A DNA stretch of 13,667 nt. Origin: a virus. Taxonomy: Duplodnaviria > Heunggongvirae > Uroviricota > Caudoviricetes. Every line of letters begins with the position of its first letter. Position 1 is the first letter of the stretch. Location of the stretch: positions 1 to 13,667 of the IMG/VR virus record IMGVR_UViG_3300028988_000007. The stretch is one strand, 5' to 3'. Under the pieces are notes generated by a model. It searched no databases and was not told the DNA's origin. It was given only the letters and a program-made list of their open reading frames with translations. Position numbers and translations under genes: made by a program. Below are positions 13,231-13,667 of this stretch, piece after piece.

Positions 13231-13575
13231 ATGAAGTTATGGCCTGTGTTGACTGGCATTGCACTCTCTTTCACTCTTATAGCATGTAAGGCCCCGACAC
13301 CACCTAAAGGTGTGCAGCCGATTACAAATTTTGACGCCAACCGCTACCTCGGAAAATGGTATGAAATAGCTCGCCTCGAGAACCGGTTCGAACGTGGTCT
13401 GGAACAGGTCAGCGCTACTTATGGAAAACGGAACGACGGAGGGATTCGTGTACTTAACCGTGGATACGATCCAACGAAAAATAAATGGAGCGAGAGCGAA
13501 GGTAAAGCATACTTTACTGGAGATACTAAAACTGCAGCGTTGAAGGTTTCGTTTTTTGGCCCCTTCTATGGTTGA
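13231..13575 (+). pseudogene. Blc-like outer-membrane lipocalin lipoprotein, 3'-truncated (114 codons; ends at the junction with an IS-like terminus)
   Basis: AGGA RBS 7 nt upstream of ATG; MKLWPVLTGIALSFTLIACKAPTPPKGVQPITNFDANRYLGKWYEIARLENRFERGLEQVSATYGKRNDGGIRVLNRGYDPTKNKWSESEGKAYFTGDTKTAALKVSFFGPFYG has lipobox LIAC and roughly 60% identity to E. coli Blc as I recall it; Blc continues ...FFGPFYGGYNVIALD... (177 aa) but here the frame stops at TGA 13573-13575, and the following sequence does not encode the Blc C-terminus in any frame. Confidence 0.7.
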
Positions 13576-13667
13576 AGTGGTCAACAAAAACTGGCCACCG
13601 AGTTAGAGTTTTTTCCAGTATCGATTTTCCGATTCGTTTGGTGGTAACCCACCATTATATTCGTGCG
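13573..13667 (-). mobile_element. Probable terminus of an IS3-family insertion sequence (IS911-like inverted repeat plus 3' end of transposase orfB), continuing beyond the window
   Basis: Sequence TGAAGTGGTCAACAAAAACTGGCCACCGAGTTAGAG begins exactly at the blc-like truncation point; it starts with the TGA typical of IS3-family ends and resembles the IS911 terminal repeat as I remember it. On the minus strand an open frame ends about 30 nt inside (...HEYNGGLPPNESENRYWKKL*, stop at 13603-13605), consistent with an orfB C-terminus ending just inside the right inverted repeat. Confidence 0.5.

What the first reader, a model, noticed from the sequence alone, without database searches (positions are those of the whole stretch)
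13231..13667. Lipocalin (blc-like) gene truncated exactly at an IS3-family terminus
The blc-like ORF is colinear with E. coli Blc through ...KVSFFGPFYG and then stops at a TGA that is also the first three bases of a sequence resembling an IS911-type terminal inverted repeat; the minus strand of the last 60 nt encodes a plausible transposase C-terminus. This suggests an IS insertion that removed or displaced the last third of the lipocalin. It also marks a likely rearrangement boundary for the whole island.
Basis: partly seen in the sequence, partly recalled or inferred. Interest (0 to 1): 0.5.

Follow-up and report, generated by a model that had tools for sequence, protein, structure and literature searches.

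The report
Prophage lipocalin gene cut by ISEc52
A common jumping gene (insertion sequence ISEc52) has landed in an accessory lipocalin gene carried by a lambda-like prophage of E. coli and cut off its last third. This is a real but ordinary event that is already present in many public assemblies.

Summary
Window 13231-13572 is codons 1-114 of a 174-aa Blc-like lipoprotein (63% identical to E. coli Blc) that lambda-like phages carry as an accessory gene (moron). Identity to intact copies stops exactly at 13572. Bases 13573-13667 are 100% identical to the right end of ISEc52, a 1250-bp IS3-family element close to IS911. The element's first three bases, TGA, supply the stop codon. On the minus strand, 13603-13667 encodes the last 20 residues of the transposase OrfB. 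Only 53% of the lipocalin domain remains, so the gene is inactivated.

The "island" is a lambdoid prophage late region. The same 114-aa product occurs on about 40 public contigs, and every contig examined stops at or inside the IS. None of 5426 complete E. coli genomes has the junction.

What lies beyond the IS could not be determined. Near-identical prophages show one simple ISEc52 insertion with a 3-bp duplication. They also show four ISEc52 junctions (five strains) that border deletions.

The "rearrangement boundary" idea is plausible but untested. This is known biology of low interest.

The parts
13231..13572 (+). Codons 1-114 of a 174-aa prophage-borne Blc-like outer-membrane lipocalin (intact form WP_000780581.1). 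The 3' third of the gene is missing.
   Evidence: ORF. 100.0% identical to the intact gene of strain PM22 up to 13572. Pfam Lipocalin_2 covers only profile positions 2-78 of 146, against 2-146 for the intact protein. 63% identity to E. coli Blc from PDB 1QWD. The intact protein scores 316 bits on NCBIfam PRK10477 'outer membrane lipoprotein Blc', cut-off 267.
13231..13287 (+). Lipoprotein signal peptide with lipobox L-I-A-C (Cys19). It is retained, so a truncated lipoprotein could still be exported.
   Evidence: Read directly from the translation MKLWPVLTGIALSFTLIAC|KAP.... It aligns with the Blc N-terminus. No signal-peptide predictor was available, so this is an inference.
13570..13572 (.). 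GGT, the predicted 3-bp target-site duplication if this is a simple insertion.
   Evidence: Inference. ISEc52 copies that are simple insertions carry 3-bp duplications: AAC in Nissle (L001) and CCT in Ec40743 (L004 15821-17070). The second GGT cannot be checked because the window ends.
13573..13575 (+). TGA stop codon of the truncated ORF, which is also bases 1-3 of the IS.
13573..13667 (-). First 95 nt of the right (IRR) end of ISEc52 (IS3 family, 1250 bp when complete), with the transposase on the minus strand. The window ends inside the element.
   Evidence: 100% identity to ISEc52-annotated copies. Position within a full copy, L001 2501-2595 of 2501-3750.
13573..13599 (.). Right terminal inverted repeat (IRR), TGAAGTGGTCAACAAAAACTGGCCACC.
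   Evidence: 27-nt arms, 78% complementary to the IRL in the full copy.
13603..13667 (-). The last 20 complete codons plus the stop of ISEc52 OrfB (the DDE transposase part), HEYNGGLPPNESENRYWKKL*; the first two bases read on the minus strand (13667-13666) belong to the preceding, incomplete codon.
   Evidence: Translation, identical to the OrfB end of the full copy. That OrfB hits Pfam rve and NCBIfam transpos_IS3.
12080..13039 (-). Neighbouring moron gene ybgA (2-thiouracil desulfurase + DUF1722 domains), divergent from the lipocalin and intact here.

Best explanation
A copy of ISEc52 is joined by its right inverted repeat to the DNA immediately after codon 114 of a blc-like lipocalin gene. 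ISEc52 is an IS3-family element related to IS911; that family transposes by a copy-out/paste-in route through a circular intermediate (established knowledge of the family, not tested here). The lipocalin gene is an accessory gene (moron) of a lambdoid prophage and lies between the late-gene activator Q and the lysis genes. The tip of the IS (TGA...) supplies an immediate stop codon, so the gene now encodes only the signal peptide, the lipobox and roughly the first half of the lipocalin domain. That fragment cannot close the barrel, so the gene is inactivated.

The most likely event is a simple, recent insertion with a 3-bp GGT duplication. The plausible source is one of the several ISEc52 copies of this strain lineage, one of which sits about 0.9 kb away in the same prophage. 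In that case the 3' third of the gene would still be present on the far side of the 1.25-kb element. The sequence stops 95 nt into the IS either because the IS is multi-copy and breaks short-read assemblies, or because the window was cut there.

Shown: the junction, the identity and orientation of the IS, and the loss of domain coverage. Inferred: simple insertion rather than deletion, the GGT duplication, and loss of function.
For: The junction position and the 100% match to ISEc52 come. The IS anatomy (1250 bp, 27-nt inverted repeats, orfA with an HTH domain, orfB with an rve/DDE domain, IS3 family) comes.

The flanking prophage DNA is 100.0% identical to strains PM22 and Ec40743 with no other lesion in the gene, which implies a recent event. 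In this same lineage, Ec40743 shows a clean second ISEc52 insertion with a 3-bp duplication (CCT), in the same orientation as here and about 2.8 kb away. PM22 and Ec40743 both carry a resident ISEc52 0.9 kb beyond the lipocalin.

The exact 114-aa product is found on about 40 contigs (85 blocks of the collection) from NCBI drafts, ENA metagenomes and Logan. Junction sequences are identical wherever IS bases are present, so the junction is not a one-off assembly artefact. The truncated protein keeps only Lipocalin_2 profile positions 2-78 of 146.
Against: The other IS junction was never seen. The predicted IRL|GGT|GGCTATAAT sequence is absent from the IMG/VR and JGI metagenome contigs. None of the predicted IS-lipocalin 3' fusion ORFs is in the 15-billion-protein collection, although for this orientation with a GGT duplication no callable ORF is expected anyway. 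No complete genome holds the junction.

Three near-identical prophages (LR-51, JNE170426, 23-AB02114) have a single ISEc52 bordered by deletions and lacking a target duplication. Two of them have the IS in the same orientation as here.
Confidence: 0.6

Rival explanations
1. The junction is the endpoint of an ISEc52-associated deletion or other rearrangement. In this case the IS is joined on its far side to distant prophage DNA (for example the ral/DUF2528/exo early-left region). The lipocalin 3' end, Q and the late promoter would be gone, leaving a crippled prophage remnant.
For: Close relatives of the same prophage (99.9-100% identity) show exactly this kind of structure at other endpoints. 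LR-51 has lipocalin' (to window 13271)|IS|exo'. JNE170426 has ybgA'|IS|DUF2528. 23-AB02114 has ybgA'|IS|DUF2528'. PM22 and Ec40743 have ylcG'|IS|ral. None of these has a target duplication. The IS orientation in JNE170426 and 23-AB02114 is the same as in the window. ISEc52-linked deletions with gene truncation are also reported for a plasmid (PMC6140695). No right-hand junction consistent with a simple insertion could be found.
Against: There is no direct evidence for this locus. A clean simple insertion also occurs in this lineage (Ec40743, CCT duplication). For an IS3-family element, simple insertion is the default outcome of a transposition event (established knowledge of the family).
Confidence: 0.36
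2. The join between the lipocalin and the IS is an assembly chimera, or the window merely ends in unrelated repeat sequence.
For: The window ends inside a multi-copy repeat. Two metagenomic contigs show odd structures at this junction: the IRL end instead of the IRR end (L012), and a second IS inside the first (L010).
Against: The identical junction with 29-136 nt of IRR sequence is present in independent assemblies made by different pipelines: NCBI isolates, ENA metagenomes and Logan. The tail lengths fit junction-spanning k-mers.
Confidence: 0.02
3. The short ORF is the natural form of this lipocalin, meaning orthologues end here.
For: None.
Against: The intact 174-aa form is seen on at least 1000 contigs and in about 1045 complete genomes. 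It aligns end to end with Blc crystal structures and with the full Pfam and NCBIfam profiles.
Confidence: 0

Closest known systems
ISEc52 (IS3 family; close relative of IS911)
   Same: The 95 nt present are 100% identical to annotated ISEc52 copies. The full copies are 1250 bp, with TG...CA imperfect inverted repeats, orfA (HTH_Tnp_1) and orfB (rve), an A6G slippery run between them (read directly from the sequence), and 3-bp target duplications.
   Different: Only the terminal 95 nt lie in the window. Identity to copies annotated IS911 is 92.6-95.1%, so this is not IS911 itself. ISfinder could not be queried, so the name rests on NCBI annotation.
E. coli outer-membrane lipocalin Blc (PDB 1QWD, 2ACO, 3MBT)
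   Same: 63% identity over 154 residues without gaps. It has the same lipoprotein N-terminus, the same GxWYEIAR motif and the same FFGPFYGGYNV stretch where the break falls.
   Different: This is a prophage-borne paralogue, not the chromosomal blc. In this window it is cut after residue 114 of 174.
blc moron of intestinal lambda-like coliphages (Mathieu et al. 2020, PMC6969025)
   Same: The intact protein is 97-99% identical to genes annotated 'Lipocalin Blc' in isolated Lambda-like phages. That paper lists blc as a moron present in more than 50% of the lambdas it studied. It sits between Q and the lysis genes.
   Different: Here the gene is disrupted by an IS.
nmpC::IS5 in the DLP12 prophage of E. 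coli K-12 (from my own knowledge; not tested here)
   Same: A membrane-protein moron in the same Q-to-lysis slot of a lambdoid prophage, inactivated by an IS inserted near its 3' end. Strain GMF054 carries the lipocalin-ybgA cassette in that DLP12 slot.
   Different: Different gene (a porin) and a different IS family.
ISEc52-associated deletions and truncations in plasmid pP10159-5 (PMC6140695)
   Same: ISEc52 copies sit at deletion boundaries and truncate the adjacent genes traN and uvrD.
   Different: That is a plasmid backbone, not a prophage. Whether a deletion accompanies the present insertion is unknown.

Membership tests
IS3 family / ISEc52 | Terminal imperfect inverted repeats beginning 5'-TG and ending CA-3' | tested here: met
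   Window 13573-13599, TGAAGTGGTCAACAAAAACTGGCCACC, is the IRR. It pairs with the IRL GGTGGCCAAATTCAGTAAACCACTTCA in the full copy (27 nt, 78% complementary).
IS3 family / ISEc52 | Near-identity of nucleotide sequence to the named element | tested here: met
   100% over 95 nt to copies annotated ISEc52 by NCBI, against 92.6-95.1% to copies annotated IS911. ISfinder itself was not available.
IS3 family / ISEc52 | Two overlapping ORFs (orfA with HTH, orfB with a DDE/rve domain) joined by a programmed -1 frameshift | tested here: inconclusive
   Met in the full reference copy L001: orfA 112 aa hits HTH_Tnp_1; orfB 272 aa hits rve and NCBIfam transpos_IS3 at 303 bits; an A6G run lies in the overlap. 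The window holds only the last 20 orfB codons, so for this copy it cannot be shown.
IS3 family / ISEc52 | 3-4 bp target-site duplication flanking the element | not testable with these tools
   Reference simple insertions have 3-bp duplications, AAC and CCT. Here the second junction lies outside the window and was not found in any collection.
Bacterial lipocalin Blc (Pfam PF08212, NCBIfam NF007786) | Full Lipocalin_2 domain (an eight-stranded barrel plus a C-terminal helix) | tested here: not met
   The window ORF covers profile positions 2-78 of 146. The intact relative covers 2-146. The gene is a member by descent, but the encoded product is a fragment.
Bacterial lipocalin Blc (Pfam PF08212, NCBIfam NF007786) | Sequence similarity to E. 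coli Blc above the curated cut-off | tested here: met
   The intact allele scores 316 bits against a cut-off of 267, is 63% identical to Blc, and has E = 7e-68 to 1QWD. The window fragment scores 81.8 bits against the Pfam cut-off of 24.
Bacterial lipocalin Blc (Pfam PF08212, NCBIfam NF007786) | Lipoprotein signal peptide with a lipobox cysteine | tested here: met
   ...SFTLIAC19KAP... read. It aligns with the Blc N-terminus. No dedicated predictor was run.
Lambdoid-phage moron | An accessory gene between the Q antiterminator and the lysis cassette of a lambdoid (pro)phage, also present in isolated phages | tested here: met
   Gene order in relatives is Q, lipocalin, ybgA, AraC-type HTH gene, holin, lysozyme, Rz, bor/iss, terminase. 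The gene is present in 19 phage records at up to 99.4% identity. Literature: PMC6969025.

The most novel reading that the evidence does not exclude
The junction may be one snapshot of stepwise, ISEc52-driven erosion of a lambdoid prophage in one E. coli lineage. In that picture the IS hops locally, sometimes into or next to its own copies (L010, L012) and possibly re-using this very site in both orientations. It then deletes the regulatory half of the phage, while the lysis and structural genes and bor/iss are kept. That would make this prophage a natural time series of IS-mediated prophage domestication.
Probability: 0.2. Interest if true: 0.2.

Novelty: already known. Interest (0 to 1): 0.08.

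Why it matters
It matters little beyond annotation. The ORF should be labelled a lipocalin pseudogene (blc-like moron::ISEc52), and the sequence end should be recognised as an IS-induced contig or window boundary.

The chromosomal blc is a separate gene, and this prophage paralogue is absent from most E. coli (about 1045 of 5426 complete genomes carry this locus), so its loss is probably neutral.

The only wider point is descriptive. This prophage lineage is being peppered and trimmed by ISEc52, a textbook route of prophage decay.

Tried and rejected
1. I looked for the far junction to decide between insertion and deletion, without success.
- Exact-pattern scans for IS-end + 0-6 nt + GGCTATAATG... 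in IMG/VR and JGI metagenomes found nothing.
- Scans for the observed junction in IMG/VR, JGI metagenomes and GTDB representative genomes found nothing.
- Megablast of the junction against 5426 complete E. coli genomes gave no record spanning it.

2. Exact look-ups of the predicted C-terminal fragment were uninformative. Fragments of 58, 59, 60 and 61 aa all exist at contig starts. Contig starts are smeared over every position. Every one of those first-batch contigs that reaches ylcG carries an intact ylcG, unlike the PM22-type background of the window.

3. Ten predicted IS-lipocalin fusion or edge ORFs, covering both orientations and 3- or 4-bp duplications, were all absent from the collection.

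4. I tested the idea that the target resembles the IS's own inverted repeat (IS911-style IR-targeting), which was prompted by TGAAGGTTTCG...TTTGGCCCC just upstream. It is rejected. The best local alignment score in ±60 bp is 15, and 40% of background 120-bp windows score at least as high.

5. I tested the idea of an insertion hot spot, because IS1 (~13550), IS2 (13559/60) and ISEc52 (13572/3) all fall within 23 bp. By my own back-of-envelope estimate this is not significant (about p = 0.09), and the sample of fragments is biased by how the protein cluster was formed.

6. The promoter/terminator scan of 12950-13667 gave nothing above expectation.

Full report
**What is in the sequence**

The + strand ORF 13231..13575 encodes 114 residues, MKLWPVLTGIALSFTLIAC...KVSFFGPFYG, followed by TGA. 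Megablast of window 12000-13667 against 5426 complete E. coli genomes finds about 1045 genomes that align from 12000 to 13572 and stop there. In those genomes the gene is annotated 'lipocalin family protein' next to a 'YbgA family protein'.

In an intact copy (strain BEC1-S17, L002 7233-7757, 174 aa) the sequence reads ...GGCCCCTTCTATGGT GGCTATAATGTAATC.... The window reads ...GGCCCCTTCTATGGT TGAAGTGGTCAAC.... The break is therefore between 13572 and 13573 with no ambiguity.

**The downstream 95 nt**

Bases 13573-13667 are 100% identical to elements that NCBI annotates as 'IS3-like element ISEc52 family transposase'. Matches occur in 3939 of 5426 genomes, with a median of 2 places per genome, so the element is multi-copy. 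Copies annotated IS911 match at only 92.6-95.1%.

A complete copy in E. coli Nissle (L001 2501-3750) is 1250 bp. It has 27-nt imperfect terminal inverted repeats and a 3-bp target duplication, AAC. It has an orfA of 112 aa (Pfam HTH_Tnp_1) and an orfB of 272 aa (Pfam rve; NCBIfam transpos_IS3 at 303 bits, cut-off 160). ISEc52 is a named element that appears in 26 papers of the library.

The window holds the right end of the element: the IRR is 13573-13599. The transposase runs on the minus strand, and 13603-13665 translates to HEYNGGLPPNESENRYWKKL*, which is exactly the OrfB C-terminus. A second frame ends KNSNSVASFC* at 13581-13583 inside the IRR. From my recollection this resembles the IS911 tail, but it is out of frame with the upstream orfB in ISEc52.

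**The interrupted gene**

The intact protein matches E. coli Blc crystal structures end to end (1QWD, E = 7e-68) at 63% identity without gaps. It passes the NCBIfam 'outer membrane lipoprotein Blc' model (316 bits against a cut-off of 267) and covers Pfam Lipocalin_2 positions 2-146 of 146. The window product covers only positions 2-78.

The product keeps the signal peptide and the lipobox cysteine (LIAC19). By general knowledge of the lipocalin fold, it lacks the later strands of the barrel and the C-terminal helix. Engineered split-Blc structures in the PDB are cut at the equivalent of residues 109/110 and need both pieces (6UKL, 6VRI, 7L5M). That fits with an N-fragment being incomplete on its own. 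Loss of function is inferred, not shown.

**Context**

The window is the late region of a lambdoid prophage. It starts inside the tail sheath gene. Reading in the minus-strand late-transcription direction, the order is AraC-type HTH gene, holin, lysozyme, Rz, bor/iss, HNH endonuclease, small and large terminase, portal, prohead protease, major capsid, head-tail genes. In uninterrupted relatives the lipocalin is followed by the Q antiterminator, ylcG, rusA and the nin genes.

So the lipocalin-ybgA pair occupies the moron slot between Q and the lysis cassette. The same protein (97-99% identity) is annotated 'Lipocalin Blc' in isolated Lambda-like coliphages. It is described as a moron present in more than half of the intestinal lambdas in one study (PMC6969025).

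**How widespread the junction is**

No complete E. coli genome spans the junction. However, the exact 114-aa product is recorded on about 40 contigs, in 85 blocks of the collection, from NCBI draft genomes, ENA gut metagenomes and Logan assemblies.

In six of the eight loci fetched, the lipocalin is followed by 29-136 nt of the identical IRR sequence and the contig then ends (in L010, after 84 nt of IRR, it runs into a second ISEc52 copy; see Noticed in passing). One contig, L008, ends exactly at the break. One, L012, shows the IRL end instead. The junction is therefore real and belongs to a circulating clone. Assemblies break there because the IS is repeated.

**Insertion or deletion?**

This is the only open point. 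The window's prophage DNA is 100.0% identical to strains PM22 and Ec40743. Both carry a resident ISEc52 about 0.9 kb beyond the lipocalin, joining a truncated ylcG to ral without a target duplication; the nin, replication and immunity region is missing there.

- Ec40743 has in addition a clean insertion between the holin and the HTH gene, with a CCT duplication and the same orientation as in the window.
- LR-51, JNE170426 and 23-AB02114 each have a single ISEc52 whose two flanks are non-contiguous prophage DNA, with no duplication: lipocalin'|IS|exo', ybgA'|IS|DUF2528 and ybgA'|IS|DUF2528'.

Both outcomes therefore occur in this lineage. ISEc52-linked deletions are also documented on a plasmid (PMC6140695).

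All my attempts to find the second junction failed or were uninformative. I put about 0.6 on a simple insertion with a GGT duplication and about 0.36 on a deletion or rearrangement endpoint.

**Consequences for the phage (inference)**

The IS lies in the path of Q-dependent late transcription, which runs on the minus strand from downstream of Q towards the lysis genes. The transposase points the same way.
- If this is a simple insertion, antiterminated transcription could still cross the IS.
- If Q and its promoter are deleted, the late genes are orphaned and the prophage is defective.

**Rejected ideas**

A resemblance between the target region and the IS inverted repeat is not above background. 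IS1, IS2 and ISEc52 junctions do fall within 23 bp of each other in this gene, but the clustering is not significant given a biased sample.

**Verdict**

This is a lipocalin pseudogene created by ISEc52 in a prophage moron. It is known biology, already present in public data, and of low interest.

Noticed in passing
L036 2678-3927; L004 20709-21958 and 15821-17070; L005 4344-5593; L006 5735-6984; L015 6047-7296: Near-identical copies of this prophage in five complete genomes carry ISEc52 at five different junctions. Four of these lack a target duplication and border deletions of the Q, nin, replication, immunity or early-left genes. One is a clean insertion with a CCT duplication. The prophage lineage is being eroded by this IS.
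   Followed up: partly
L012 2940-2988; L010 about 2932-3066: Two gut-metagenome contigs with the same lipocalin break differ beyond it. L012 continues with the IRL end of ISEc52, which is the opposite orientation. L010 has a second ISEc52 (IRL first) inserted after base 84 of the first. Either these are real nested or re-targeted insertions, or they are assembly artefacts.
   Followed up: partly
window about 13550 and 13559/60 (seen in L028/L029 and L033-L035): Other IS elements cut the same gene within 23 bp of this site. IS1 does so in several complete E. coli genomes, and 153 collection blocks hold the 67-aa C-terminal fragment whose contigs start at this site (three sequences checked). IS2 does so in Shigella sonnei. 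In addition, an IS911-family copy sits in the ybgA-lipocalin spacer of strain GMF054 (L003), and IS1, IS2 and IS3 occur in ybgA in other genomes.
   Followed up: partly
window 13581-13605 (minus strand): ISEc52 orfB stops at 13603-13605 (...RYWKKL*). From my recollection, the IS911-like tail KNSNSVASFC*, which ends inside the IRR at 13581-13583, is in another frame. NCBI flags all six ISEc52 copies seen here whose annotation name is ISEc52 as 'frameshifted' pseudogenes; that may reflect this difference or the programmed frameshift.
   Followed up: partly
window 10999-11728 (minus strand): The AraC-type HTH gene between the holin and ybgA is frameshifted in this lineage. It appears as a 129-aa ORF here and is annotated 'frameshifted' in relatives. 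It is intact (243 aa) in GMF054 and in L008.
   Followed up: no
window 12080-13039 (minus strand): The lipocalin's divergent neighbour is a 319-aa YbgA-type protein (2-thiouracil desulfurase plus DUF1722 domains). This is an unusual enzyme-like cargo for the Q-to-lysis moron slot.
   Followed up: no
L008 1-10342: A prophage only 98.2% identical over the shared 3.9 kb, with different upstream genes (TrkH, GGDEF, PBP), has a contig that ends exactly at the equivalent of 13572. This could be an independent insertion at the same site or a coincidental contig end.
   Followed up: no
L047 1179-1678: One draft genome has the lipocalin split into 104-aa and 58-aa ORFs 10 bp apart on the same contig. 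This is a small internal lesion unrelated to the IS.
   Followed up: no
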